Shown: positions 5,353-29,584, counted from the stretch's first letter. The stretch is DNA of 38,984 bases from an uncultured Bacilli bacterium (GCA_949440065.1 CASRZP010000002.1:1-38984), one strand, 5' to 3'. A program made the numbers and translations. The notes: a model not told the origin generated them from the letters alone.

Positions 5353-5371
5353 AACATAAGGAAGTATAGGC

Positions 5372-5416
5372 ATGAAAATTAACCAAATGAAAACTAGGGG
5401 GGGGGGTAACTTATAA
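5372..5416 (+). promoter_or_regulatory. Leader mini-ORF (MKINQMKTRGGGNL) containing a G10 homopolymer at 5397-5406, upstream of an exported-protein gene
   Basis: RBS AAGGAAG 7 nt before ATG 5372. The core AACTAGGGGGGGGGGTA is identical to the one at 11035-11051. A weak AAGAA/TTCTT hairpin plus T-run follows at 5445-5465. Confidence 0.45.
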
Positions 5417-5545
5417 AGTAGTACCCTTTCATATCAAGGATGAGAAGAAATTCCCATTCTTTTTATTGCTCTAAAAATAAAAAGTTTAAAAAGTGATGTA
5501 GATAAGAAAAACTATCGACAATAATGATAATAAGGAGTGATAAAA

Positions 5546-6784
5546 TTGAATAGGAAAAAGATAATTTTAATCATACTAATAGGAATTATGATATCAGGAA
5601 TAACACTAATGTATTCATCGTACACATTGTTTTCAGCAAATCAAATCAATAAGTCAGCAATTACTATTAAAGTAGGAACCATGAATGGAAAGATAGATGG
5701 TATAATAACAAATAAATTAACTCTAGAAAAAGGAAAGAAACAAACTTTTGTCGTGACTTTAGAAAACTTGAATGCCATTGAAGGAAAGTTTTTACCTTAT
5801 TATATAGGAATTATCCCTGATGAGGTAACTTTTGGATACTTAGAAGCAACAGGAGTAGATATACCTATTGAAACTAATCTTACTAAAAATGGTAAGAAAA
5901 CGTATTCTATTTATTTAGAGAATAATTCAAATTCAAGTATTACCATTAACTTAGGAGTACAAGGAGGATTAGTGAGTCAACCTTTATCCTTACCTACGAA
6001 TACACATATGATACCTCAATCAGTAGGAGAAAATAAAAATATATCTAACATTTGGAAGTATGATCAAAGATCAGGGTCAAGTACTTTCTGTGTAACGGGA
6101 GAAGAGTCCACATGCCTACCTATTAACCCAGATACCTTTGAACCAGGTACCATTATCAAATATAAAGTCAATGATACTACTGAGAAGTATTTTCATGTGA
6201 TGTTTGATAACGGGGATACCCTAACTTTACAACAAAGAGAAAATACGATATATCAAACGGCACGGTATAAAGAAAGTAATGATAATACACAAGGACCAAC
6301 AACTATTTTACGAGTGTTAGAAAATGCCCCAGCAAATTGGATGAATGTAAATAATCAGACATATACACTAGGCTTAACAATATTTAAAGATAACGCTTTT
6401 ACTGGATGTACATATGATGAAATAACTGATAAGTTTACATGTGTTACAAATATCTATACTATGGGAGAAAGAACAGGAAAATCACGAATGATTACTGTAC
6501 AAGAGGCTCATGCATTAGGATGTTTAGGGTTTGAAAGTGATAGATCAACAACTGGAACATGTCCTATATGGATGTATAATTATTTATATAATTCTAAATT
6601 ATACGGAGGAACAGTAAGCCAAAGAGGAGAAGAATTCGGAAGCGATTATGGTTATTGGACGATGAATGCATATATATCTGATTCAACTAGAGCTTATTGT
6701 GTATACGACACTGGGCGTATAGGAAATCAACCTACGAGTGTTAGTAGCGAAGGTGGTAGAGCTGTTATTATGATTAAAAAATAA
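5546..6784 (+). CDS. Exported protein with a TasA/SipW-type N-terminal signal-anchor and a Cys-containing C-terminal domain; function unknown
   Basis: TTG 5546 sits 8 nt after AAGGAG, whereas the track's GTG 5537 overlaps the RBS. N-terminus is MNRKKIILIILIGIMISGITLMYSSYTLFSAN. The C-terminal GYWTMNA...V.D.G.I.......GGRAVIMI pattern is seen in Firmicute surface-protein C-terminal domains. Confidence 0.6.
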   Translation: MNRKKIILIILIGIMISGITLMYSSYTLFSANQINKSAITIKVGTMNGKIDGIITNKLTLEKGKKQTFVVTLENLNAIEGKFLPYYIGIIPDEVTFGYLEATGVDIPIETNLTKNGKKTYSIYLENNSNSSITINLGVQGGLVSQPLSLPTNTHMIPQSVGENKNISNIWKYDQRSGSSTFCVTGEESTCLPINPDTFEPGTIIKYKVNDTTEKYFHVMFDNGDTLTLQQRENTIYQTARYKESNDNTQGPTTILRVLENAPANWMNVNNQTYTLGLTIFKDNAFTGCTYDEITDKFTCVTNIYTMGERTGKSRMITVQEAHALGCLGFESDRSTTGTCPIWMYNYLYNSKLYGGTVSQRGEEFGSDYGYWTMNAYISDSTRAYCVYDTGRIGNQPTSVSSEGGRAVIMIKK

Positions 6785-6840: not shown

Positions 6841-7058
6841 AACAACAAAGCAGAAGTTGAGGAGTATGATTATTTCTTTTACTAGAGAGTCCATGGTTGG
6901 TGGAAATGGATGAAAGAGTAATTTGAAGGTAGCAACGGAGTGGTTTATTGAAATTCTTAGTAGATAAACACGTTTTCTCGCGTTAAGAGGGTAAAGATAC
7001 AAACTAAGGTGGTACCACGAATTTTGTTTCGTCCTTATGATTTGTGTCTTTTTATTTC
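6841..7058 (+). promoter_or_regulatory. T-box riboswitch leader; candidate specifier GUA (Val) at 6929-6931
   Basis: AGTA (5' S-turn), AGAGAG bay, GGTGGAA distal loop, specifier-loop GAAGGTAG at 6925-6932, and T-box sequence AGGTGGTACCACGA at 7007-7020. Terminator helix AAAGATACAAA (6994-7004) pairs with TTTGTGTCTTT (7041-7051), followed by a T-run. Confidence 0.85.
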
Positions 7059-10580: not shown

Positions 10581-10651
10581 ACTTGTGATAAAAAAATTGA
10601 CATTTTACTTATTTAATGATTATGTTGTTATTAAGAAAGGAGATATATTTG

Positions 10652-10843
10652 ATGAAACATATCCGTAAACTTACGATAAATAGAAATTTACTTATACCAT
10701 TATATAAACCATCGGATTTCATAACTAGAGAATACAAAGGTTTTATTGATTCTTTGGCTAAGGATTCTATAACAGAAGCTCAAAAAGCAAAGAAGAAAAG
10801 ACGAGAAGAGTTTATCAAAAAAGATGGTTCTAGTCTTATTTAA
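10652..10843 (+). CDS. Hypothetical small basic protein
   Basis: AAAGGAG lies 8 nt before ATG 10652, so the track's start at 10616 is probably too early. No recognisable motifs. Confidence 0.4.
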   Translation: MKHIRKLTINRNLLIPLYKPSDFITREYKGFIDSLAKDSITEAQKAKKKRREEFIKKDGSSLI

Positions 10844-10918: not shown

Positions 10919-10947
10919 TTGAAAAGAAATAACAAATTTGATATGAT
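10919..10947 (+). promoter_or_regulatory. Sigma-A-type promoter driving the G10 leader and the LRR-protein gene
   Basis: TTGAAA (10919-10924), 17-nt spacer, TATGAT (10942-10947). Confidence 0.6.
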
Positions 10948-10975
10948 TATTTTATGATAAAGGTAGGTGTTAAAA

Positions 10976-11059
10976 ATGAGAAAATTAAATGATATAAATT
11001 TTTCTTCTAACACCACTTTTGTTAACCCTAGATTAACTAGGGGGGGGGGTAGACCTTAA
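10976..11059 (+). promoter_or_regulatory. Leader mini-ORF (MRKLNDINFSSNTTFVNPRLTRGGGRP) containing a G10 homopolymer at 11040-11049
   Basis: RBS AAGGTAGG before ATG 10976. The G10 tract is read as AGG GGG GGG GGT. CCCTAG-attaa-CTAGGG hairpin at 11026-11042. The core AACTAGGGGGGGGGGTA is the same as at 5392-5408. Confidence 0.5.
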
Positions 11060-11083
11060 AATAAAATTAAATCATAAGAACCA

Positions 11084-11114
11084 AAAGAACGTGAAGAAAT
11101 TTACGTTCTTTTTC
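11084..11114 (+). terminator. Intrinsic terminator / attenuator between the leader mini-ORF and the LRR-protein gene
   Basis: AGAACGT-gaagaaattt-ACGTTCT hairpin followed by TTTTT. Only about 26 nt separate it from ATG 11140, which leaves no room for an independent promoter. Confidence 0.65.
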
Positions 11115-11139
11115 GTGGTTCAAAGAAAGGAAAAAGAAA

Positions 11140-12738
11140 ATGAAATCAAGAAAAAAACTTATTTTATCTAGTGCACTTTTATTCGTGTTAGTACTAGTAA
11201 CCATAGGAGTAACTTATGCAGTGTTTACTTTTAGTAGAGAAGGTGCCATTGAAAATACTTTGGAAACAGGAACAGTCACTTTAACGTATACCGAAGGAAA
11301 AACAGGAATTACCTTAAATGAAGCATACCCAATTTCAGATGATGCTGGTAAAGTTTTAACGGGAGTTAATCATGTGTTTGACTTTACTGTTCAAGCCAAT
11401 TTATCGAAATCCATGTCTATTAATTACGAAGTTACAGCAGTTAAGATTCCTATTACTGATATGACATCTTTAGAAGATAATGAAGTAAAACTATATTTAG
11501 AACGAGCCATAGATCCAGAAGTAGAATACCAAGAAGTTTTAGCACCTAGTAATTTTATACCAAGGGAAGAACAAAGTAGTCTAGGATCACCTTCAGGTTC
11601 GATGATATTAGATCAAGGATCATTCACCAATCAAGGAACAACAATACATAACTATCGTCTACGTATGTGGATAGCAGATGATGCTGTTATTCCTAGTGGT
11701 GAATCAAGAAAATATGGAGTAAGGGTCAATGTTTATGCTAGTCAATCAGGAGTAAAGATGGATGAGAGTTGTTTTACCTTTGATGATACTACAGGAACCA
11801 TTATAGGATATTCTGATAACTGTTCAAAAGATGTAGTCATTCCTAATCAAATTAATGGAGTAGAAGTTGTAGCTATTGGTGATCGCTCTCTTAGAGAAAA
11901 AGGATTAACATCAGTAAATATTTCTAATACTGTAAAATCTATAGGCCGATCATCTTTTTCGGAAAATTTATTGAGCGAAATAGAAATTCCTGAAGGTGTA
12001 AAGGAAATTGGAGATTTTGCCTTTATGGATAATCGATTAACTAAACTTACTATTCCTAGTAGTGTAACAAAAATAGGAAAGAACCCTTTTAATAATAACC
12101 AATTATCTGATGAAGATGCCTTTATTTACAAAAGAGATGAATTTGGAAACATTGACTATACCACTATTATCAGTTACGGTGGGGCACGACGAGATAATGT
12201 TGTTATCCCTAGTGGAGTAACAACAATTGCTACAAAAGCTTTTGATGGAAATAAGCTAACAAGCGTTATCTTGCCAGAGGGTTTACTTACTATAGGAAGT
12301 GATGCCTTTCATAACAATCTACTTACTTCTATTACTATACCAAGTAGTGTAACTAGTATTGGTATAGCATCTTTTAATGATAATCAATTAAGTGATAACG
12401 AAGCTTTTATTTATCAAAGAAACGAAGATGGAAGTATTGATTATACAACGATTGTTAGTTACGGAGGAAAAAATAGAGATATTGTGACTATTCCTGATCA
12501 GGTTAAGACTATACGATATTATGCACTAGCTTATAATTCATTAAAACAGGTAATTATACCAAGTGGTGTTACCACTATCCAATCAGACGCCTTATTAAGC
12601 AATCAATTAACTAAGATTATCAATAAAACAGGAAAAAGTTTTAACTGGGGTACGATAACAGGTGGAACAACAACGTCAACATTTGTAACAGGAACTATAC
12701 CGCATAAAAATGGTGATATTATTGTAACTAGCGAATAA
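11140..12738 (+). CDS. Exported surface protein: TasA/SipW-type signal peptide, TasA/camelysin-like N-terminal beta domain, and BspA-type leucine-rich repeats
   Basis: N-terminus is MKSRKKLILSSALLFVLVLVTIGVTYAVFTFS...TGTVTLT, a SipW-cognate-like motif. NYRLRMWIADD...YGVRVNVYA follows. BspA-like LRR units (VVIP..I.G..V..IG..AF....LTS..IP.SV..IG) span about aa 207-495. Confidence 0.75.
   Translation: MKSRKKLILSSALLFVLVLVTIGVTYAVFTFSREGAIENTLETGTVTLTYTEGKTGITLNEAYPISDDAGKVLTGVNHVFDFTVQANLSKSMSINYEVTAVKIPITDMTSLEDNEVKLYLERAIDPEVEYQEVLAPSNFIPREEQSSLGSPSGSMILDQGSFTNQGTTIHNYRLRMWIADDAVIPSGESRKYGVRVNVYASQSGVKMDESCFTFDDTTGTIIGYSDNCSKDVVIPNQINGVEVVAIGDRSLREKGLTSVNISNTVKSIGRSSFSENLLSEIEIPEGVKEIGDFAFMDNRLTKLTIPSSVTKIGKNPFNNNQLSDEDAFIYKRDEFGNIDYTTIISYGGARRDNVVIPSGVTTIATKAFDGNKLTSVILPEGLLTIGSDAFHNNLLTSITIPSSVTSIGIASFNDNQLSDNEAFIYQRNEDGSIDYTTIVSYGGKNRDIVTIPDQVKTIRYYALAYNSLKQVIIPSGVTTIQSDALLSNQLTKIINKTGKSFNWGTITGGTTTSTFVTGTIPHKNGDIIVTSE
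12049..12618 (+). repeat. Internal tandem duplication (about 285 nt / 95 aa per unit) inside the LRR gene
   Basis: TIPSSVTKIGKNPFNNNQLSDEDAFIYKRDEFGNIDYTTIISYGGARRDNVVIPSGVTTI compares with TIPSSVTSIGIASFNDNQLSDNEAFIYQRNEDGSIDYTTIVSYGGKNRDIVTIPDQVKTI. Confidence 0.7.
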
Positions 12739-20954: not shown

Positions 20955-21031
20955 GTCCCCGTAGCTCAGTTGGATAGAGCAATCCCCTTCTAAGGGATCG
21001 GTCAAGCGTTCGAATCGCTTCGGAGACACCA
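20955..21031 (+). tRNA. tRNA-Arg (anticodon UCU)
   Basis: Cloverleaf: acceptor GTCCCCG/CGGAGAC (one C-A mismatch at 4:69), D-arm GCTC-AGTTGGATA-GAGC, anticodon arm ATCCC-CTTCTAA-GGGAT, T-arm AAGCG-TTCGAAT-CGCTT, discriminator A, encoded CCA. Confidence 0.95.
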
Positions 21032-21952: not shown

Positions 21953-22360
21953 TTACAAATTTTCTGTAACTATTGTGATCTTATCTTTATCAGATAAATA
22001 AAGTATCAATTTCATTAATTCATCAAGAAGTTCATCGGATATTCTCCCAAAAACATAATAATCTAATTTATTTTTATTGAAATAGAATAGTTTATCAGCT
22101 TTAGCGTATGATGGCTTTTTTAATTTTCTAGTACCGTTTTTCTCAAATTCAGTTATTTCCATATTTTCTTTATGAGATAATTTTTGTCTTTTTTGTTCTT
22201 CACTTTTGAAACTAGAAATAACAGTAGTTACATGAGTATATTCTAAACCTTTAATACAATTTGGGTTATCATCTATGACTATAAAAGAGTGAGTACCAAT
22301 TTCTTTTCCATCGTCACCTATATATTTATTTACTACAATAATATCTCCTAATTTACACAT
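21953..22360 (-). CDS. Hypothetical protein whose N-terminus resembles PemK/MazF-type SH3-like barrels
   Basis: MCKLGDIIVVNKYIGDDGKEIGTHSFIVIDDN resembles the GDI..V......G.E..G.RP.VV. pattern, with H.F replacing RP. RBS AGGAGTAAGG. The family assignment is tentative. Confidence 0.3.
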   Translation of the reverse strand: MCKLGDIIVVNKYIGDDGKEIGTHSFIVIDDNPNCIKGLEYTHVTTVISSFKSEEQKRQKLSHKENMEITEFEKNGTRKLKKPSYAKADKLFYFNKNKLDYYVFGRISDELLDELMKLILYLSDKDKITIVTENL

Positions 22361-22380
22361 AGCCTTACTCCTTGTTCGCG

Positions 22381-22902
22381 TTATTTACAAGTATATCCAT
22401 TTGTACTGTTATACATTTCTTTAAATTCATCAAGTGTAAGGTCTTTTTTAATATTGGTAATTAGTTGAGATGATTCGTCGCCACTATCTTCACTTGCGTT
22501 TAATTTTTTTGATATCTCTTCTAAAGCATTATAATCAAGTTTTTCATAATTTACCTCAAAAACAGTCTTAATAGAATTATCACCAACTTTTTCATAAGTG
22601 ACCATCATACCACCGATATTTTCAAAACTTTTCATGATTAATGAACCAATACCATAAACAAAATCAATATATTCTGCATCCATTTTTTGAAGTTGTTCTT
22701 GTTTTATGGTAAGTAGTTTATCATTTTTGTAAGTAGCCGTAATTGTATTGTCCGTTGTGTATCCATCTTCATCTGTTTCTGTTTTACTACAAATCATTTT
22801 CCCTGTATTGTCATTTTTCCCTCTTTGGTTAGTATTATTACCACATCCTGTTATAGATAGTAGTAATAAAGTTACTAAGCATAAAAGTCCTAATTTTTTC
22901 AT
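22381..22902 (-). CDS. Lipoprotein, possibly YehR/DUF1307-like
   Basis: Start at MKKLGLLCLVTLLLLSITG-C (lipobox) with RBS GAAAGAGGTG. TITATYKNDKLLT and VNYEKLDYNAL resemble DUF1307 lipoproteins. Confidence 0.5.
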   Translation of the reverse strand: MKKLGLLCLVTLLLLSITGCGNNTNQRGKNDNTGKMICSKTETDEDGYTTDNTITATYKNDKLLTIKQEQLQKMDAEYIDFVYGIGSLIMKSFENIGGMMVTYEKVGDNSIKTVFEVNYEKLDYNALEEISKKLNASEDSGDESSQLITNIKKDLTLDEFKEMYNSTNGYTCK

Positions 22903-23127
22903 TTTTAAACACCTCTTTCTATTGAAAAAATCTATATTAAAAGTCATATTAACTTTTAACCAAAAATAATTTTTGTTTCTAATAAAATTATATCCTAACT
23001 TAGAAATTTGTGTCAAATTATTTTATAGATAAGGTTTTTGATGATAAATAAATAGATATGGAAAAAATTGGAAAAAGAAAAAAGTCTAAATCAATAGACT
23101 TTTCTATTTAGTTAACTTATAATAAGT

Positions 23128-23577
23128 TTATTGAATATGCTTCTTGGCGCTATCACAACATAGCCAGTTAATGGATAAATTGTAATGCTTTGCTAATTTG
23201 CATAATTTATCTAAAGGTATTTGGGTATAACCATATTCGTAGTAAGCGTATGCTGATTGATTGGTTCCAATTACCTTTGCCATTTCTTTTTGTGTTAGCT
23301 TCTTTTCCTTTCTAAATTCTTTTAGACGCTTTCCTAAAAATTCTAACGTCACAGTTTCATGAGCAGGCATTTTCGATTTATTGTTCGTTAGATTTAATAG
23401 GTAATCAATGTTTGTTTTGAAGTGTTGTGCGAAGAGGTCTAACTTTAAGATAGGAAAGTTAATATCTCCTAACTCCCACATTGCGTATGTTGAACGTTTT
23501 ACCTCTAAAATGGTAGCAACATCGTTTTGGGTCATGTCAAAATCTTCGCGTAAATTTCTTATCCTTTCATATTTCAT
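23128..23577 (-). CDS. Transcriptional regulator with two tandem XRE-family HTH domains
   Basis: IRNLREDFDMTQNDVATILEVKRSTYAMWELG and LKEFRKEKKLTQKEMAKVIGTNQSAYAYYEYG are two Cro/C1-type HTH motifs. Transcribed divergently from the bacteriocin exporter. Confidence 0.85.
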   Translation of the reverse strand: MKYERIRNLREDFDMTQNDVATILEVKRSTYAMWELGDINFPILKLDLFAQHFKTNIDYLLNLTNNKSKMPAHETVTLEFLGKRLKEFRKEKKLTQKEMAKVIGTNQSAYAYYEYGYTQIPLDKLCKLAKHYNLSINWLCCDSAKKHIQ

Positions 23578-23753
23578 CTTATCACCCAATTTTATTTTAG
23601 TACATGACTTATGTAAGTTTTATAATTTGTCAAGTGATACGATTAATATGTGCAAATTTTTGAATTTTATGTAAAAAATTCGTATTTTTTTTTTACTTTT
23701 TTAGTAATTTTAAATTTACTTTCCAATGATGATATTGGGAGGTGAAAAGATGT

Positions 23754-25850
23754 GTGGCACATCTAGAATTTATTTCACAACTAGATAAAAAAGATTGTGG
23801 AATCACTTGTTTGTTAATGATTTTAAAATATTACGGTGGAGAAGCAAGTAGAGAGTATTTACGTTTACTCGCTCATCAAGATCAGTATGGTGTCAATGCT
23901 TTTTATTTAATTGATGCGGCAAATCATCTCGGTTTAGAAGGAAAAGGCATAACAGGTCCCTTAGAAGAAATGCCTTGTTCCTTTCTTCCTTGTATTGCTC
24001 ATGTTCATTTGAATGGATATGAACACTTTGTTGTTATTGAAAAAATTAACCATAAGAGTCAATATGTATATATTGTTGACCCTGCTAGAGGAAAACTAAA
24101 ATATAGTTTTAAGGAGTATCAAAAAATTTCAACTAATCAATATTTATGCTTTCGTCCAAAGGTAGCAAAACTGCCTGTGTTAAAAGAAGAAAAAAGGTTC
24201 TCACGTTTTTGTTTAAACTTTTTTGCTAGACAGTGGTATTTGATATTAGTAATTTTGTTTTGCATACTCCTAGCGTTTCTTTTAGAATTAATAGTAACGT
24301 ATCATTTTCAATGGATATTAGATTATGGTATAGCGTATCAAAAGAAAGCACTTCTTAGTTTTTTTCTTACCTTTGTCATTTTATTGATTATTTTTATTCG
24401 TGTCATTTACTTAATGAAAGAATATTTTATGAATCATCTTTTACAAAAATTTCAGCTTTTTATTAGTGAAAAGGTGATACACCACATCTTACACCTTCCC
24501 TTTCAATACCAACAGTATCATACAGCAGGAGAACTCATTTCTAAGTTTTCTTTTCTAGAGGATGTTCTTTATATTTGGTATCCTATAATGAATGGGATAA
24601 GTAGTAGTATTATTTTAGTTATCTTACTTATTTTATTAGGAAGAATACATCATTACTTTTTTTCTATTTTTCTTTTATTTATGATAGTTCAATTATTTAC
24701 AACAAAACTAGAAATTCCTATAGTTAGTAAGATGTTAAAAAAAACGAAGATGGAATTAACCTTATTAAATTCTAAGTTAACCGAATGTTTCTATGGATTG
24801 GGAACCATTAAGAATATGCATATAGAAGAAGATACCTTTGAAAAGTTAGATGTTTACTTAGGAAATTATTTAACCAAGGCAAAAAAGTTAAAAATGCGAC
24901 TAAAATTAATAGAAGAAGAAAAAAGTTTTATTCGTTTATTCATGGAACATTTGCTATTAACATTTGGAGGGTTTTTGCTACTACAACAAAAAATTACTTT
25001 ATCGCATTGGTTAATGGTATCTTTTTTATCCCGTCTAGCTATTAGTCAATGTGAGGTTCTATTGGATTTTCCTTCAAGGTGGGAAAATAGTAAAACTTCT
25101 TTTCAACAGTTAAATGACCTTCTTTCTATAGAAATAGAAGATTTTACTTTTGGTCTATCTACACTTCCTCTTTGTTTAAAAGGAAAAATACAATTGAACA
25201 AGTTTTCATTTTTCATTAGGAAAGATAAAGGATTATTTTATGATGTATCGTTAACTATCGATGAAGGAGATCGTATTGCTTTATTAGGATCATCAGGAAG
25301 TGGGAAGAGTACTTTATTAAAAATATTGATGCGTTATTATGAAGTTGCTCATCAAATGATTTATTTAGATAATCGTGATATTTTATCATATCCATTAGAA
25401 ATGATTAGAGAAAATATTTGTTATGTATCACAAGATGAAATGCTTTTTTCAGATACGGTATATCAAAATATTATGTTAAATCAAAAAATAGATTATGATG
25501 AATTTTTAATGATATGTAAAATTACTGAGGTAGATAGCATTGTATCTAGTAGTTTATTAGGATATCAATATAAAATAGAAGAAAATGGAATCAATCTATC
25601 TGGGGGAGAAAGACAAAGAATTATTTTAGCAAGAGCACTAGCGAAGAAGTCATGTATATATTTATTTGATGAATCTTTTAATCAATTAGATATTCATAGA
25701 GAAAGGAGAATCATGAAAGCGATTTTTAATTATTTAGAAGGAAAAACTATATTTGTTGTGTCGCACCGAAAAAACAACTTGGACCTATTTACACGAAGAT
25801 TGGTGTTAGATGATAAAAATATTATAGATGATTACTTATATTTCCATTGA
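23754..25850 (+). CDS. Bacteriocin ABC exporter with an N-terminal C39 peptidase domain (double-glycine leader processing)
   Basis: C39 motifs QLDKKDCGITCLLMILKYYGG and YEHFVVIEKI. TM domain present. Walker A GSSGSGKST, signature LSGGERQR, Walker B IYLFDES. GTG 23754 sits 9 nt after GGGAGGTG. Confidence 0.9.
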   Translation: MAHLEFISQLDKKDCGITCLLMILKYYGGEASREYLRLLAHQDQYGVNAFYLIDAANHLGLEGKGITGPLEEMPCSFLPCIAHVHLNGYEHFVVIEKINHKSQYVYIVDPARGKLKYSFKEYQKISTNQYLCFRPKVAKLPVLKEEKRFSRFCLNFFARQWYLILVILFCILLAFLLELIVTYHFQWILDYGIAYQKKALLSFFLTFVILLIIFIRVIYLMKEYFMNHLLQKFQLFISEKVIHHILHLPFQYQQYHTAGELISKFSFLEDVLYIWYPIMNGISSSIILVILLILLGRIHHYFFSIFLLFMIVQLFTTKLEIPIVSKMLKKTKMELTLLNSKLTECFYGLGTIKNMHIEEDTFEKLDVYLGNYLTKAKKLKMRLKLIEEEKSFIRLFMEHLLLTFGGFLLLQQKITLSHWLMVSFLSRLAISQCEVLLDFPSRWENSKTSFQQLNDLLSIEIEDFTFGLSTLPLCLKGKIQLNKFSFFIRKDKGLFYDVSLTIDEGDRIALLGSSGSGKSTLLKILMRYYEVAHQMIYLDNRDILSYPLEMIRENICYVSQDEMLFSDTVYQNIMLNQKIDYDEFLMICKITEVDSIVSSSLLGYQYKIEENGINLSGGERQRIILARALAKKSCIYLFDESFNQLDIHRERRIMKAIFNYLEGKTIFVVSHRKNNLDLFTRRLVLDDKNIIDDYLYFH

Positions 25851-26247
25851 TACTTGGAAAAAAAGAATAGAAAATCGTTTTTTCCTTCATTTCATTTCTC
25901 TCATGGTGTTATTGCTCATTCTTCTTGGTTTATTATTTTACTATTTAATGACGAAAGAGGTTTTGTTAACGAAATCAATTTCTGTTACTTCACTAGAGTC
26001 AGGATATTATCAGCTTCATGTTGATAATTTGGAATTAGCAAAATTAATGAATCAAGTTACTTTGTTAGATAAAGGGCAAGAAATTTCTTATCGCATTTTA
26101 AACGTTGTATTAACAGATGATAAAGAAAAACCACAGCAAGTAACAATATCTACTGTAAAAAAAATAGGAAATCAAACGGAAATGGTATTGATAAGAAAAA
26201 AATTATTGATGGTATTGATTGATAGTATAAAAGGAGGAACAACATGA
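25828..26247 (+). CDS. Short (139 aa) single-TM protein resembling the N-terminus of ComB/LcnD-type bacteriocin secretion accessory proteins
   Basis: Overlaps the ABC gene end by 23 nt and the first bacteriocin gene start (ATGA). W..R..NRFF.HFISLMVLLLILLGLLFYYLMTKEVLL resembles the accessory-protein N-terminal anchor, but the large periplasmic domain is missing. Confidence 0.5.
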   Translation: MITYISIDTWKKRIENRFFLHFISLMVLLLILLGLLFYYLMTKEVLLTKSISVTSLESGYYQLHVDNLELAKLMNQVTLLDKGQEISYRILNVVLTDDKEKPQQVTISTVKKIGNQTEMVLIRKKLLMVLIDSIKGGTT

Positions 26248-26387
26248 AATCTCTTAATCAAGAATCACTAAAAAATATGAAAGGAGGATTTTCTATATGG
26301 GCTGGAGTTGGCATTGGTGCTTTAATCATCTTCTTATCAGGAGTAGTTGATGGCATTGTGCATCCTAAGGCTTGTACAGAAAAATAA
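26244..26387 (+). CDS. Class II bacteriocin precursor with a double-glycine leader (peptide A); absent from the ORF track
   Basis: RBS AAAGGAGGAA 6 nt upstream. Translation is MKSLNQESLKNMKGG / FSIWAGVGIGALIIFLSGVVDGIVHPKACTEK. The leader has hydrophobic residues at -4, -7 and -12 and GG at -2/-1. The mature peptide is hydrophobic with GxxxG-type motifs. Confidence 0.8.
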   Translation: MKSLNQESLKNMKGGFSIWAGVGIGALIIFLSGVVDGIVHPKACTEK

Positions 26388-26392
26388 ACAAG

Positions 26393-26563
26393 ATGAAAAA
26401 ATTAAATGAAGAAGAATTACTTACGATAACAGGAGGAGCCAGCGTAACAGGATCTATTGTTAATGCAGTGTGCTCTATCTTTAAATTTATTTATGACGTA
26501 GGAAGGGATTTAGGTTCTTGTATACGTCGAATTGAAAAATCTTCTCTTTGTCCTTTAGAATAA
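26393..26563 (+). CDS. Class II bacteriocin precursor with a double-glycine leader (peptide B)
   Basis: MKKLNEEELLTITGG / ASVTGSIVNAVCSIFKFIYDVGRDLGSCIRRIEKSSLCPLE. This is a canonical leader with L-12, E-8, L-7, I-4 and GG. The mature peptide is 41 aa with 3 Cys. The track's start at 26372 is probably too early. Confidence 0.8.
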   Translation: MKKLNEEELLTITGGASVTGSIVNAVCSIFKFIYDVGRDLGSCIRRIEKSSLCPLE

Positions 26564-26613
26564 GACACATTTTTTAAAGGTTTGCATTTACTATCAATAA
26601 GGAGGTATTATCG

Positions 26614-26919
26614 TTGGAAGAGGAGTTAATGTTAGAAATTATTGCTAGTGAGCTAGGTTTACCTGTTTATAATAAGTGGATGGAACAGTTAACAAAGGAC
26701 GCACTTTTCTATGATGATTTATATCAAAAAACATTTAAGTTACCAAAAGAAGAACAACTAAAAATGATGAAAAAGGCTATAGCTAGAGTAGAGAAAAATT
26801 CAAGAATTTATCAAAATGCGTTAGAAAAAATGGAAACTTGGATAGAGTATTCTTATTTAGCAAGTTATGAAGACCCTTTGGCAACAATTGCTAGAAAAAA
26901 AGAAAAAATGAAAAAATAA
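26614..26919 (+). CDS. Soluble helical ~100-aa protein, candidate bacteriocin immunity protein
   Basis: TTG 26614 sits 8 nt after AGGAGG. No TM segment, predicted helical and K/E-rich. Its position right after the bacteriocin genes and its size match the four-helix-bundle immunity proteins of class II loci. Confidence 0.4.
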   Translation: MEEELMLEIIASELGLPVYNKWMEQLTKDALFYDDLYQKTFKLPKEEQLKMMKKAIARVEKNSRIYQNALEKMETWIEYSYLASYEDPLATIARKKEKMKK

Positions 26920-27833: not shown

Positions 27834-28271
27834 ATGAAAAGAAAAATATTTTATGGGGTCATCTTTATTTTAGGAATAGCTTTAATGGTAGCAAGAGAAT
27901 ATGAAAGAAACAATTTTAATCATTTAAAACTTGCAGATGATACGATATCTATGGAAATAAAAGAAGGAACGTTAACGAATAAGGGTGCTACGGTGATAAT
28001 CACGGATAAGTCTAAAAAAAAGAATATTTATGATGGAGGTTTTTTGATTTATAAAAAAGGAATAGGTAGATGGCTGGCATTACCTTCTAAAGAACAATGG
28101 GTTAACGCCATAGGTTATCGTACAGACGAAAATGGTAAATTAGAATTTGATTGTAATTGGGAATGGTGGTATGGAAAATTAAAAAAAGGGACATATCGCT
28201 TAGTCAAAAGTGTTATTATAGCTGAAGAATGGACAGAAAAAAATGTTTATGTAGAATTTGAAATAAAATAA
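27834..28271 (+). CDS. Small TM-anchored/exported beta-rich protein, paralog 1 of 3
   Basis: N-terminal hydrophobic segment. The core MEIKEGTLTNKGATVIITDKS...IYKK..G.W.....K..WV...GY..DENGKLE..C.......LKKGTYRL.K........KNVYVEFEIK is shared with 28506 and 29162. Promoter TTGATA-17-TATATT upstream. Confidence 0.7.
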   Translation: MKRKIFYGVIFILGIALMVAREYERNNFNHLKLADDTISMEIKEGTLTNKGATVIITDKSKKKNIYDGGFLIYKKGIGRWLALPSKEQWVNAIGYRTDENGKLEFDCNWEWWYGKLKKGTYRLVKSVIIAEEWTEKNVYVEFEIK

Positions 28272-28293
28272 AGTATCTTATATTTTATCATTA

Positions 28294-28321
28294 CTAAAGA
28301 AAATAATCTTTAGTTTTTTTA
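28294..28321 (+). terminator. Rho-independent terminator
   Basis: CTAAAGA-aaataa-TCTTTAG hairpin followed by T7. Confidence 0.75.
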
Positions 28322-28505
28322 TGTCATTTACATCAATTTTGAATTTTACGATTTTTTTCATCAAAATCATTGATAAAAGTCAAGTATTATGATATATTAA
28401 TCTTAAGTTAACTATCTTTGAAAACAACATGAAAATAAGGCTTTACAGTAATGTGTGTGACCTACTGATAATTCCCAAGTAAAAAGGAAAGAAAGGAGAC
28501 TTAAA

Positions 28506-28928
28506 ATGAAAAAAATGATTAGAATATTGTTTTTGGTTATTTTAGTATTTGCTGTATTATATGGTGTTTTAGTAATAAAGAGTAATCAAAAATTTGATAA
28601 AGTAGATAATACTTCGATGGAAATTAAAGAAGGTACTTTGACTAGTACTAGTGCTACAATTATTATTACGGATACATCATTAGAGAAATATGAATATGAT
28701 AATGTATTCATGATTTATAAAAAAAAGTTTGGCATATGGACCGCGGTTACAGAAAAAGTAAAATGGGTGAGTTCACCAGGTTATTATGTAGATGCTAATG
28801 GTAAGTTAGAAATGGAATGTGATTTTCACAAAAAAAAGTTAGATAAGGGTTTGTATAGATTGTCAAAATGGGGTTATTTAGCAGACGGAACAGCTAAAAA
28901 TGTTTATGTAGAATTTGAAATAAAATAA
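28506..28928 (+). CDS. Small TM-anchored/exported beta-rich protein, paralog 2
   Basis: RBS AAAGGAGA. Residues about 10-105 are identical to paralog 3. The C-terminal ~35 aa diverge (DFHKKKLDKG...GYLADGTAKNV versus NFPKQKLGKG...AYLKDGTVKNI). Confidence 0.75.
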   Translation: MKKMIRILFLVILVFAVLYGVLVIKSNQKFDKVDNTSMEIKEGTLTSTSATIIITDTSLEKYEYDNVFMIYKKKFGIWTAVTEKVKWVSSPGYYVDANGKLEMECDFHKKKLDKGLYRLSKWGYLADGTAKNVYVEFEIK

Positions 28929-28950
28929 AGTATCTTATATTTTATCATTG

Positions 28951-28977
28951 CTAAAGAAAATAATCTTTAGTTTTTTT
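28951..28977 (+). terminator. Rho-independent terminator
   Basis: CTAAAGA-aaataa-TCTTTAG hairpin followed by T7. Confidence 0.75.
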
Positions 28978-29161
28978 ATGTCATTTACGTCAATTTTAAA
29001 TTTTACGATTTTTTTCGTCAAAATAATTGATGATAGTCAAATATTATGATATATTAATTTTAAGTTAACCATCTAAAAAAACAACATAAAAATAAGGCTT
29101 TACAGTAATGTGTATGACCTACTGATAATTCCCAAGTGAAAGGGAAAAAAGGAGACTTAAA

Positions 29162-29584
29162 ATGAAAAAAAATATTAAAATATTATTTTTGGTTATTTTA
29201 GTATTTGCTGTATTATATGGTGTTTTAGTAATAAAGAGTAATCAAAAATTTGATAAAGTAGATAATACTTCGATGGAAATTAAAGAAGGTACTTTGACTA
29301 GTACTAGTGCTACAATTATTATTACGGATACATCATTAGAGAAATATGAATATGATAATGTATTCATGATTTATAAAAAAAAGTTTGGCATATGGACCGC
29401 GGTTACAGAAAAAGTAAAATGGGTAAGTTCACCAGGTTATTATGTAGATGCTAATGGTAAGTTAGAAATGGAATGCAACTTTCCTAAACAAAAATTGGGT
29501 AAGGGGTTGTATAGGTTATCAAAATGGGCGTATTTAAAAGATGGAACAGTTAAAAATATTTATGTAGAATTTGAAATCAAGTAA
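29162..29584 (+). CDS. Small TM-anchored/exported beta-rich protein, paralog 3
   Basis: See paralog 2. RBS AAAGGAGA. Confidence 0.75.
   Translation: MKKNIKILFLVILVFAVLYGVLVIKSNQKFDKVDNTSMEIKEGTLTSTSATIIITDTSLEKYEYDNVFMIYKKKFGIWTAVTEKVKWVSSPGYYVDANGKLEMECNFPKQKLGKGLYRLSKWAYLKDGTVKNIYVEFEIK

What the first reader, a model, noticed from the sequence alone, without database searches (positions are those of the whole stretch)
5372..5474. G10 homopolymer inside a mini-ORF between yneF and an exported-protein gene
A run of ten G (5397-5406) is very unlikely by chance in ~30% GC DNA. It lies in a 14-codon ORF with a good RBS (MKINQMKTRGGGNL). The 16-nt core AACTAGGGGGGGGGGTA is identical to the one at 11035-11051, and the downstream GAAGAAATT...TTCTTTTT segment is also shared, so the two leaders are homologous. 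Tract length sets the reading frame. G10 stops at 5414 and G11 gives an immediate TAA. G9 or G12 extends translation (…VTYKVVPFHIKDEKKFPFFLLL) across the hairpin and T-run to 5472-5474. This is a candidate slipped-strand phase-variation switch. Possible targets are the downstream TasA-signal protein gene or termination of the tkt operon.
Basis: partly seen in the sequence, partly recalled or inferred. Interest (0 to 1): 0.65.

Follow-up and report, generated by a model that had tools for sequence, protein, structure and literature searches.

The report
Poly-G leader switch before surface-protein genes
The run of ten G lies inside a tiny translated leader gene followed by a transcription terminator, a unit that recurs many times in uncultured gut Firmicutes ahead of secreted-protein genes and probably switches them on and off at random as the run gains or loses a G.

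Summary
G10 lies at 5397-5406 and again at 11040-11049, and about 110 nt around each run is homologous. Each run sits in a short ORF that has a Shine-Dalgarno site, and a hairpin plus T-run terminator follows, upstream of an exported-protein gene.

Comparison with other genomes shows a family. About 35 distinct leaders were found in mouse- and human-gut low-GC Firmicute assemblies. Contig depth suggests tens of copies per genome.

Shared features:
- An SD and an in-frame ATG at variable distance.
- The peptide end [IV]NxxLTRGG(G).
- An uninterrupted G8-G13 run.
- Two frames that stop within 19 nt of the run, and one frame that reaches or crosses the terminator.

Nearly identical strains differ in run length (10, 11 or 12). 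Derivatives with a decayed run also exist, fixed in the long frame or a short frame.

My best reading is slipped-strand phase variation that acts through a leader-peptide attenuator. In the long frame the ribosome covers the terminator and the gene is transcribed.

Length heterogeneity within a sample and any effect on expression could not be tested, because no raw reads or RNA data were available. I rate it a new variant of a known kind.

The parts
5358..5364 (+). Shine-Dalgarno site (AAGGAAG) of leader ORF A, 7 nt before the ATG
   Evidence: An SD plus an in-frame ATG is present in 32 of 35 motif hits, against 18% of control ATGs.
5372..5416 (+). Leader ORF A in the G10 state (MKINQMKTRGGGNL, stop TAA at 5414-5416). 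It starts 19 nt after the yneF stop, with no promoter or terminator between.
5379..5396 (+). Conserved pre-run motif TTAAC-N6-(T/A)(T/C/A)AAC-TA. It is read in frame as [IV]N-x-x-[LKS]-T-R.
5397..5406 (+). G10 run of locus A, the proposed slipped-strand switch
   Evidence: In nearly identical strains it is G10 (L001, X1, X5), G11 (L003) or G12 (L004), and it is deleted in L002.
5407..5416 (+). Early stops in the two short frames: TAA at 5407-5409 (used when the run length is 2 mod 3) and TAA at 5414-5416 (1 mod 3). They overlap the conserved TATAAA/TAAAAT box.
5424..5430 (+). CCCUUUC, the predicted pairing partner of the G run in the RNA. Found in A-type copies only.
5436..5464 (+). Intrinsic terminator A: hairpin AAGGAUGAGAA-GAAA-UUCCCAUUCUU (-7 to -8 kcal/mol) overlapping the T-run at 5460-5464
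   Evidence: Stem changes in paralogues are compensated.
5407..5474 (+). The long frame, used by G9 or G12. It reads across the terminator to the TAA at 5472-5474.
5546..6784 (+). Downstream gene A (TTG start; 412 aa). It has an N-terminal membrane helix, a beta-sandwich domain and a Cys-rich domain. It belongs to an unnamed family of at least 289 proteins.
10919..10947 (+). Sigma-A-type promoter of leader B (TTGAAA, 17 nt, TATGAT preceded by TG)
10960..10969 (+). Shine-Dalgarno site (AAGGTAGGTG) of leader ORF B
10976..11059 (+). Leader ORF B in the G10 state (MRKLNDINFSSNTTFVNPRLTRGGGRP, stop TAA at 11057-11059)
11040..11049 (+). G10 run of locus B
   Evidence: It is G10 in L007 and X8, G11 in L006, and G12/G13 in the disordered L005 assembly.
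11084..11113 (+). Intrinsic terminator B: hairpin AAAGAACGUGAA-GAAA-UUUACGUUCUUU overlapping the T-run at 11109-11113. The 39-nt fold scores -14.1 kcal/mol, z = -4.0.
11050..11171 (+). The long frame of locus B, used by G9 or G12. It crosses the terminator and the SD and ATG of the downstream gene, and stops at 11169-11171.
11140..12738 (+). Downstream gene B: an exported BspA-type leucine-rich-repeat surface protein. Its ATG is 26 nt after the T-run.

Best explanation
Each G run is the mutable core of a phase-variable leader-peptide attenuator.

How it would work:
- A promoter, either the unit's own (locus B) or that of the upstream operon (locus A), transcribes a short leader ORF that is translated.
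- The ORF ends in ...[IV]N-x-x-L-T-R-G-G-G, so the G run is read as AGG GGG GGG G.
- Slipped-strand mispairing during replication changes the run by one G at a time and so changes the leader's frame.
- In two of the three frames the ribosome stops 0-19 nt after the run. The intrinsic terminator, which starts 28-48 nt after the run, then forms, and the surface-protein gene stays off.
- In the third frame the ribosome translates into or across the terminator hairpin. It masks the 5' arm, so RNA polymerase reads through into the gene.

With tens of such units per genome, a population would carry many different combinations of exported or surface proteins.

Shown: the anatomy; its conservation across the family; the evidence that the leader is translated; the terminators; the one-long, two-short frame pattern; and length differences between near-identical strains.

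Inferred: the high mutation rate, which frame is 'on', and any effect on expression.
For: 1. The run and the duplicated 110-nt unit are real.

2. It is a family. Related units occur upstream of homologous exported-protein genes in several MAGs and metagenomes. Contig depth over the repeated parts is 12 to 30 times that of the flanks.

3. The leader is translated. 32 of 35 motif hits have an SD and an in-frame ATG, at distances of 2 to 30 codons. Only 18% of control ATGs have an SD-like site.

4. The terminator is real. A hairpin plus T-run is present in all 21 units folded, with different compensated stems: CCCATTC, CTTGTTC, ACGTTC, CTCGTTC, CTATTCC and a long C-type stem.

5. Locus B has a good promoter before the leader and only 26 nt between the T-run and the gene's ATG. 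The gene must therefore depend on read-through.

6. All 21 units, from 8 diverged lineages, have exactly one frame whose stop plus a 15-nt ribosome footprint reaches the terminator, and two frames that stop within 19 nt. The per-lineage shuffle probability is 0.18-0.41 and the product is 8e-5, though the lineages are not independent.

7. Strains with 0-1 substitution in 3.7-6 kb differ in run length. L033 and L137 differ by G9 against G10. Paralogues in one assembly range from G9 to G11 and occupy all three frames.

8. Some alleles have lost the run but keep an intact gene. L142 (G5) and L002 (35-bp deletion) both read through the terminator. L140 and L141 (GGAGGGGGC) are fixed in a short frame.

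9. In another lineage a homologous gene has a G8 run between a perfect TTGACA and TAGAAT (L146). This suggests that control by a poly-G run recurs in this protein family.
Against: Heterogeneity within a sample was not measured, because only assembled contigs were available.

Both G11 alleles (L003, L006) come from one sample. Several variant contigs show typical post-homopolymer errors (L004, L005, L007), so part of the polymorphism may be technical.

The commonest length is uniform within a subfamily. It is G10 in window-type loci in five or more datasets, and G9 in eight C-type copies. This looks more stable than classic contingency loci.

The frame statistic is modest for any single unit, and the units share descent.

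In four lineages (L078, L042, L121, L138) the long frame ends at or just before the 5' arm rather than beyond the hairpin.

The terminator at locus A is weak (-7.7 kcal/mol; z = -1.5).

The nucleotide-level conservation of TTAAC...TTAACTAG is not explained by this model. The Asn codon is always AAC, although AAC makes up only 23% of Asn codons in the window's genes.

There are no expression data.
Confidence: 0.5

Rival explanations
1. The run is a phase-variable promoter spacer. It lies between a -35-like TTAACT and a -10-like TAAAAT/TATAAA, and its length sets the spacing, as in Bordetella fim, Neisseria porA/opc or Mycoplasma vlp. Transcripts from this internal promoter would lack the G run. 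The CCUU...AAGG hairpin could then form at their 5' end and weaken the terminator.
For: TTAACT, 18 nt, TAAAAT is found at 11033-11062. By my own count from the sequences, the spacing is 16-18 nt at the observed run lengths in the A, B, L042, L128, L130, L134 and L137 lineages. TTAAC(T) and TAAAAT are the most conserved blocks flanking the run. L146 shows a true promoter-spacer arrangement for a homologous gene. In A-type copies the CCUU:AAGG hairpin overlaps the base of the terminator stem.
Against: It does not explain the conserved SD and in-frame ATG.

It fails in the C-type units, where the spacing is 22 nt, and in the CALVHX-type and L138 units.

Any such transcript still meets the terminator about 40 nt later.

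Good promoters lie upstream of the leaders at locus B and, by my own reading, at L125, L130 and L138.

L142 and L002 keep intact genes although this putative promoter is destroyed, by a 14-nt spacer in one and by deletion in the other.
Confidence: 0.15
2. It is a physiological attenuator that needs no mutation. AGG-GGG-GGG are rare codons and resemble an SD site. The ribosome's speed or stalling on them, the supply of GTP to RNA polymerase on the run, or the conserved nascent peptide would decide between RNA structures: G run paired with CCCUUUC, CCUU paired with AAGG, or the terminator. This would work like the trp, pyrBI or pyrG leaders. On this view the run is kept for its RNA or coding properties.
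For: GGG makes up 8% of Gly codons and AGG 6% of Arg codons. The peptide end [IV]NxxLTRGG is conserved, and so are its nucleotides. In A-type copies the predicted lowest-energy fold pairs the G run with CCCUUUC next to the terminator. In B. subtilis pyrG, poly-G pairing with a pyrimidine-rich part of the attenuator is an established antitermination device (PMC7039003). The commonest run length is uniform within each subfamily.
Against: The pyrimidine partner is found only in A-type copies. The CCUU...AAGG hairpin does not overlap the terminator in C-type units. Four to six G would be enough for pairing or for three Gly codons, yet runs of 9 or more are kept. Paralogues occupy all three frames, so no single peptide end or stop position is conserved. 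The downstream genes encode surface proteins and have no link to Gly, Arg or GTP metabolism.
Confidence: 0.15
3. The slippage happens at the RNA or ribosome level rather than in the DNA. RNA polymerase or the ribosome slips on the G run, which is a perfect G GGG GGG slippery site. A fixed fraction of leaders would then be read in the long frame, giving a constant low level of read-through rather than heritable on and off states.
For: The run lies within translated sequence. The commonest alleles (G10; G9 in C-type) are always in a short frame, one step from the long frame.
Against: No stimulatory structure typical of programmed frameshifting is conserved. DNA-level length differences do exist. 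Nothing here measures slippage in RNA or protein.
Confidence: 0.08
4. The element does nothing. On this view it is a repeated relic, or an assembly or base-calling artefact, carried along when the downstream gene family duplicated.
For: Contigs often break or carry errors at the run. The homology between copies could reflect gene duplication alone.
Against: The same unit, with clean flanks on both sides, appears in independent datasets from 2017 to 2025 and in several species. Uninterrupted runs, SD sites, frames and compensated terminators are maintained across diverged lineages.
Confidence: 0.04

Closest known systems
Simple-sequence contingency loci with a homopolymer inside a coding region (Campylobacter jejuni poly-G genes, Neisseria and Haemophilus repeat-controlled surface genes). 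From my own knowledge.
   Same: A G run of 8 or more in translated sequence, so that a change of one base alters the frame. Many loci per genome. The targets are surface or exported proteins.
   Different: Here the run is not in the structural gene. It lies in a separate leader ORF of 12 to about 40 codons, and the effect would pass to the gene through a transcription terminator. The organisms are Firmicutes that carry MutS (seen next to a homologue), not species naturally poor in mismatch repair.
Clostridioides difficile cwpV switch (Emerson et al. 2009, PMC2784873)
   Same: Phase-variable expression of a surface protein in a gut Firmicute. The promoter lies upstream of the switch, and the off state is proposed to form an intrinsic terminator in the leader.
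   Different: cwpV switches by RecV-mediated inversion of a 195-bp segment. Here no inverted repeats or recombinase are involved. The variable element is a homopolymer read by the ribosome.
E. coli pyrBI leader-peptide attenuator (from my own knowledge; also mentioned in PMC7039003)
   Same: A leader ORF extends across an intrinsic terminator. A ribosome that follows the polymerase closely prevents the hairpin from forming.
   Different: In pyrBI the coupling is set by UTP-dependent pausing of the polymerase. Here it would be set genetically, by the frame the G run imposes.
Promoter-spacer homopolymer switches (Bordetella fim poly-C, Neisseria porA/opc, Mycoplasma hyorhinis vlp poly-A; Treponema pallidum tpr poly-G). 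From my own knowledge.
   Same: A homopolymer upstream of members of a surface-protein gene family. L146 (TTGACA-N12-G8-TAGAAT) looks like this type.
   Different: In the window's units the run lies downstream of a promoter and an SD site, inside an ORF, and a terminator follows. The spacer reading fails in the C-type copies.
B. subtilis pyrG poly-G antitermination (PMC7039003)
   Same: A poly-G stretch in the RNA can pair with a pyrimidine-rich stretch beside an attenuator. A-type copies are predicted to pair the G run with CCCUUUC.
   Different: In pyrG the G residues are added by reiterative transcription at the transcript's 5' end when CTP is low. Here they are encoded in the DNA. The partner is not part of the terminator stem and is not conserved outside the A-type.

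Membership tests
Simple-sequence (slipped-strand) contingency locus | An uninterrupted repeat long enough to be hypermutable (about 8 or more G/C) | tested here: met
   G10 at both window loci. G8-G13 across the family.
Simple-sequence (slipped-strand) contingency locus | Run length varies within populations or between closely related strains while the flanks stay constant | tested here: inconclusive
   Lengths of 10, 11 and 12 at locus A, 10 and 11 at locus B, and 9 against 10 for L033 and L137, with 0-1 substitution in the flanks. However, only contigs were available, both G11 alleles come from one sample, and errors cluster at the run. No raw reads.
Simple-sequence (slipped-strand) contingency locus | A change in length alters expression | not testable with these tools
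   The frame consequences were computed. No RNA or protein data.
Simple-sequence (slipped-strand) contingency locus | Association with surface or host-interaction genes, at several loci per genome | tested here: met
   The downstream genes have an N-terminal membrane helix followed by a beta-sandwich or a BspA-type LRR domain. Repeat depth is 12 to 30 times the flanks. Ten hits in assembly OOIH01, nine of them with an uninterrupted run.
Leader-peptide transcription attenuator | Promoter, then a translated short ORF, upstream of the regulated gene | tested here: met
   Promoter at 10919-10947. SD plus in-frame ATG in 32 of 35 motif hits against an 18% background. Translation itself was not observed.
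Leader-peptide transcription attenuator | An intrinsic terminator between the leader and the gene, with no promoter after it | tested here: met
   A hairpin plus T-run in all 21 units, with compensated stems. 26 nt from the T-run to the ATG at locus B. No promoter-like site on the + strand between 5465 and 5536 at locus A.
Leader-peptide transcription attenuator | The ribosome's position decides whether the terminator forms, through overlap or alternative structures | tested here: inconclusive
   One frame reaches the terminator in 21 of 21 units. Alternative pairings (G run with CCCUUUC; CCUU with AAGG) occur only in A-type copies. No functional data.
Promoter-spacer homopolymer switch | The run lies between the -35 and -10 hexamers of the gene's promoter, with near-optimal spacing | tested here: not met
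   A candidate TTAACT, 16-18 nt, TAAAAT exists in A/B-type copies. The spacing is 22 nt in C-type copies, the run lies inside a translated ORF, and a terminator follows. The feature is met only by the distant homologue L146, whose spacer is 20 nt.
Known RNA families (Rfam 15) | A match at the family's gathering score | tested here: not met
   The only hits in the window are the T-box at 6844-7039 and a tRNA. Permissive scans of both units gave only noise, with E of 0.08 or more and scores far below the cut-offs.
TasA / SipW-type signal-peptide proteins (the downstream genes) | A match to the SipW-cognate signal model TIGR04088, or a TasA/camelysin fold | tested here: not met
   No hit for the window's proteins. 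The best hit was E=0.06, below the cut-off, on a C-type relative. The predicted fold (pLDDT 78) has no significant PDB match; the best E is 1e-3, to PapD-like beta-sandwiches.

The most novel reading that the evidence does not exclude
An uncultured lineage of gut Firmicutes, and relatives in the human gut, controls tens of surface-protein genes per genome with a switch not described before. A hypermutable poly-G run sets the frame of a leader peptide, and only one frame carries the ribosome over an intrinsic terminator and so turns the gene on. This would be a ribosome-decoded, phase-variable attenuator. The invariant TTAAC-N6-TTAACTAG / [IV]NxxLTR motif would be a further functional part that is still unexplained.
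Probability: 0.4. Interest if true: 0.75.

Novelty: new variant of a known kind. Interest (0 to 1): 0.62.

Why it matters
Phase variation is well described in a few pathogens, but far less so in commensal Firmicutes of the gut. Those known there mostly use DNA inversion.

If this reading is right, a common mouse-gut lineage and its human-gut relatives carry a large repertoire of randomly switched surface proteins. That bears on immune evasion (IgA), phage resistance and strain persistence.

It would also add a mechanism that joins two textbook devices: slipped-strand mutation and leader-peptide attenuation.

There is a practical side. These runs break short-read assemblies, and they mark loci where counting alleles in metagenomes could reveal selection acting in the host.

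Tried and rejected
- **Genome scan.** Only about 11 of 109 loci were related.
- **Pattern bias.** My metagenome pattern required the first TTAAC. That overstated how invariant it is. L144, found through its protein, has TTTAC there.
- **Reads and RNA.** No raw-read runs exist for this organism. Logan contigs give only the major allele, and they break at the repeat. The only 'RNA' run is a whole-genome-amplified library held as contigs.
- **Consensus structure.** RNAalifold on a MAFFT alignment recovered only part of the terminator, because the loops differ in length. I used per-sequence folds instead.
- **A trp-like three-hairpin switch.** I considered G run:CCCUUUC, then CCUU:AAGG, then the terminator. 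I rejected it as a feature of the whole family because the partners are specific to A-type copies.
- **Promoter-spacer model.** Considered and ranked lower; see the rival explanations.
- **Databases.** Rfam, Pfam, NCBIfam and the PDB (by sequence and by fold) gave no name for the element or for downstream protein A.
- **Literature.** Searches for a homopolymer in a leader peptide or attenuator, for poly-G with SipW, and for Turicibacter phase variation found nothing relevant.

Full report
**What is in the sequence**

The window is about 30% G+C and has two runs of ten G, at 5397-5406 and 11040-11049. It has no other run of 8 or more G or C. Shuffled sequence gives 0.14 G8 matches on average, and none of 100 shuffles reaches the observed count. 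The 17-nt core AACTAG10TA is identical at the two sites, and about 110 nt around each run aligns.

Each run lies in a short ORF that has a good Shine-Dalgarno site:
- Locus A: AAGGAAG, 7 nt, then ATG at 5372. The peptide is MKINQMKTRGGGNL.
- Locus B: AAGGTAGGTG, then ATG at 10976. The peptide is MRKLNDINFSSNTTFVNPRLTRGGGRP.

G10 stops two codons after the run. G11 stops at once, on TAA or TAG. G9 and G12 read on across the hairpin and T-run, to 5472-5474 at locus A and to 11169-11171 at locus B.

**Genomic context**

The window is a chromosomal stretch from an endospore-forming Firmicute whose gene order resembles that of Bacillus (the comparison with Bacillus is from my own knowledge). It carries tkt, sirA and yneF; leuS with a T-box leader; a CoatF-domain gene, an Hsp20-family gene and an Hsp90-family gene (htpG-like); and GerM- and GerE-domain genes. 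Further on come genes for YabP-family, YqfD, YbeY, diacylglycerol-kinase, cytidine-deaminase, Era-like GTPase and RecO proteins. Identical proteins and DNA occur only in mouse-gut metagenomes.

Leader A starts 19 nt after the yneF stop, with no promoter or terminator in between. Leader B has its own sigma-A-type promoter, TTGAAA, 17 nt, TGnTATGAT, at 10919-10947.

A hairpin and T-run follow both leaders:
- Locus A: 5436-5464, -7.7 kcal/mol.
- Locus B: 11084-11113. The 39-nt fold scores -14.1 kcal/mol, z = -4.0, and 0 of 200 shuffles fold as well.

At locus B only 26 nt separate the T-run from the ATG of the downstream gene. That gene can therefore be transcribed only by read-through.

The downstream genes encode exported proteins. 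Gene B is a BspA-type LRR surface protein. Gene A is an unnamed protein with an N-terminal membrane helix, a beta-sandwich domain and a Cys-rich domain. It belongs to a family of at least 289 proteins with conserved N-terminal parts and variable C-terminal parts.

**It is a family**

A pattern scan of reference genomes was mostly noise, but it found related units in several places:
- five contigs of one 'Tenericutes' MAG,
- three contigs of one 'Bacilli' MAG,
- one other 'Bacilli' MAG,
- two human-gut 'Clostridiales/Clostridia' MAGs.

A more specific scan of metagenomes found 18 more units, ten of them in a single assembly. Starting instead from homologues of protein A, and so without selecting on the run, I found further copies.

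In four mouse-gut runs the contig depth over the A-type terminator segment is about 7 to 30 times that of the single-copy flank. In one run the B-type segment TTAACCCTAGATTAACTAGGG is about 12 times deeper than its flank. This points to tens of copies per genome.

All units share one plan:
- a promoter or an upstream gene;
- an SD and an ATG;
- a variable N-terminal part of 2-30 codons;
- a conserved in-frame end, [IV]-N-x-x-[LSK]-T-R-G-G(-G), written as [AG]TTAAC-N6-T[TC]AACTAG(n);
- an uninterrupted G8-G13 run;
- an AT-rich stretch containing TAAAAT(AA);
- a terminator that ends in TTCTTTTT;
- the gene.

**Evidence that the leader is translated**

Of 35 distinct hits to the leader motif, 34 have an in-frame ATG before any stop, and 32 of those also have an SD-like site 3-18 nt upstream. 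Two of the three hits without an SD look like chance matches to the relaxed search pattern. Only 18% of all ATGs in the same loci have such a site. The SD sequences and the ATG distances differ between copies. What is conserved is therefore the ability to be translated, not a particular sequence.

**Evidence that the terminator is real**

Every one of the 21 units folded has a hairpin directly before the T-run. The stems differ and the changes are compensated: GGAUGAGAA/UUCCCAUUC, GGAUGGGAA/UUUCCAUUC, GAGAAG.../...CUUGUUC, AGAACGU/ACGUUCU, GCGAG/CUCGU, GGAAUAG/CUAUUCC, and a 20-bp C-type stem.

**The frame pattern**

In all 21 units, from about 8 diverged lineages, two of the three frames leaving the run stop within 19 nt. 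In the A and B types these stops are the TA(A/G) straight after the run and the TAA of the conserved TAAAAT box at +7, or else a TAA at +12.

In the third frame, the stop plus a 15-nt ribosome footprint reaches the 5' arm of the terminator. In most units this frame runs right through the terminator.

Shuffling the sequence between the run and the T-run gives this pattern with probability 0.18-0.41 per lineage. The product over eight lineages is 8e-5. That figure overstates significance, because the lineages share ancestry.

**Run-length variation**

Contigs from other samples are 99.8-100% identical to the window over 3.7-6 kb, yet they differ at the run:
- Locus A: G10 (L001), G11 (L003), G12 (L004).
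- Locus B: G10 (L007), G11 (L006).

L033 and L137 are the same locus in two assemblies and carry G9 and G10. Within one assembly the paralogues carry G9, G10 and G11 and occupy all three frames.

There are real caveats. Both G11 alleles come from one sample. L004, L005 and L007 show the errors typical after a homopolymer. Contigs from independent runs give G10 at locus A (X1, X5) and at locus B (X8). Eight C-type copies all carry G9. No raw reads were available, so heterogeneity within a sample is untested.

**Alleles without a run**

- L142 is the next family gene just beyond the window's 3' end. Its run has decayed to AAGGGGGC, and its 37-codon leader reads in frame through the terminator.
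- L002 has a 35-bp deletion at locus A that removes the run (window 5397-5431). Its leader also reads through the terminator.
- L140 and L141 have an interrupted run, GGAGGGGGC, fixed in a short frame.

All three sit ahead of intact genes.

A more distant homologue, L143, has no run. Another, L146, has a G8 run between a perfect TTGACA and TAGAAT, with no leader ORF. That is a promoter-spacer arrangement.

**Mechanism**

The reading that explains the most features is a phase-variable leader-peptide attenuator. Replication slippage changes the run by one G and so changes the leader's frame. Short frames release the ribosome well before the terminator, and transcription ends. The long frame carries the ribosome onto the terminator, and the polymerase reads through.

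This works like the pyrBI attenuator, with the frame in place of UTP-dependent coupling. It gives the same result as the C. difficile cwpV switch, a conditional terminator in the leader of a surface-protein gene (PMC2784873), but by a different genetic event.

I put about 0.5 on this specific mechanism. I put about 0.7 on the broader claim that the runs are heritable on/off switches of some kind.

**Rival explanations**

*Promoter spacer.* A reading with TTAACT, 16-18 nt, TAAAAT fits the A/B-type copies and is echoed by L146. It does not explain the SD and ORF. It fails in the C-type copies. It also leaves a terminator in the path of the transcript, and L142 and L002 keep intact genes without that promoter.

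*Physiological attenuator.* Rare AGG and GGG codons (6% and 8% usage), poly-G pairing with a pyrimidine stretch as in pyrG (PMC7039003), or arrest by the nascent peptide could act without mutation. The RNA partners occur only in A-type copies, and no single frame is conserved.

*Slippage in RNA or on the ribosome.* Neither could be tested here.

**What remains unexplained**

The nucleotide-level invariance of TTAAC...TTAACTAG is unexplained. The Asn codon there is always AAC, against 23% usage in the window's genes. It points to a further function, such as a protein-binding site or an RNA or peptide signal.

**Is it known?**

No Rfam family matches. No paper in the searchable library describes a homopolymer in a leader ORF coupled to a terminator. 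I class it as a new variant of a known kind. It is interesting mainly for its scale, tens of units per genome in commensal gut Firmicutes, and for the way it joins slipped-strand mutation to attenuation.

Noticed in passing
window 5379-5396 and 11022-11039; all family loci: TTAAC-N6-TTAACTAG lies directly before the run and is conserved at the nucleotide level in the A, B and C types. The two TTAAC copies form a direct repeat with an 11-bp period, and the Asn codon is always the rarer AAC. It resembles the direct-repeat sites bound by OmpR/PhoP-type regulators (from my own knowledge). It also places TAA and TAG stops in the other two frames. Its function is unknown.
   Followed up: partly
L002:3230-3320 (equivalent to window 5397-5431): One mouse-gut sample has a 35-bp deletion that removes the G run and the stretch up to TTTCA. 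The leader then reads through the terminator. Downstream of it the gene is only 87% identical to the window's, so it is a mosaic or paralogous allele.
   Followed up: partly
window 5680-6600; L001: Downstream gene A is highly polymorphic between otherwise identical strains. There is a 6-nt indel at 5688, an A3/A4 frameshift and a 144-bp deletion (5991-6134) in L001, and many contig 'joints' between 5846 and 6600. Together these suggest recombination among paralogues.
   Followed up: partly
L139:9826 compared with L140:5823 and L141:5003: The identical 413-aa family protein, with the same downstream neighbours, has different upstream neighbours in different samples. The upstream gene is DUF2935 in one and peptidase M16 in the others. 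The junction falls at the leader, which suggests rearrangement through the repeated leader units.
   Followed up: no
L146:9930-10000: A homologous gene in another organism has a G8 run between a perfect TTGACA and TAGAAT (spacer of 20 nt). It has no leader ORF and no terminator. This looks like a promoter-spacer version of poly-G control.
   Followed up: partly
L142:9809-11254 (just beyond the window's 3' end): Another family gene follows the YfhO and DUF212 genes. Its run has decayed to G5, and its 37-codon leader is open across the terminator.
   Followed up: yes
window 6844-7039: A T-box leader (119.5 bits) lies upstream of the leucyl-tRNA synthetase gene. This is an ordinary feature.
   Followed up: yes
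window 27834-29584: Three tandem paralogous genes of 140-145 aa, each with a Big_14 bacterial Ig-like domain.
   Followed up: no
window 21953-26919: An island with lower G+C (26-28%). It holds a peptidase-C39 ABC exporter of the bacteriocin type, an Xre/RstR-like repressor on the opposite strand, a lipoprotein-like ORF and several small ORFs. It may be a bacteriocin or mobile cluster, and it lies next to tRNA-Arg(TCT) at 20955-21031.
   Followed up: no
window 10616-10843: A small ORF of 63-75 aa with no family match lies between the VanY-type carboxypeptidase gene and leader B. It was called as a gene in three other assemblies.
   Followed up: no
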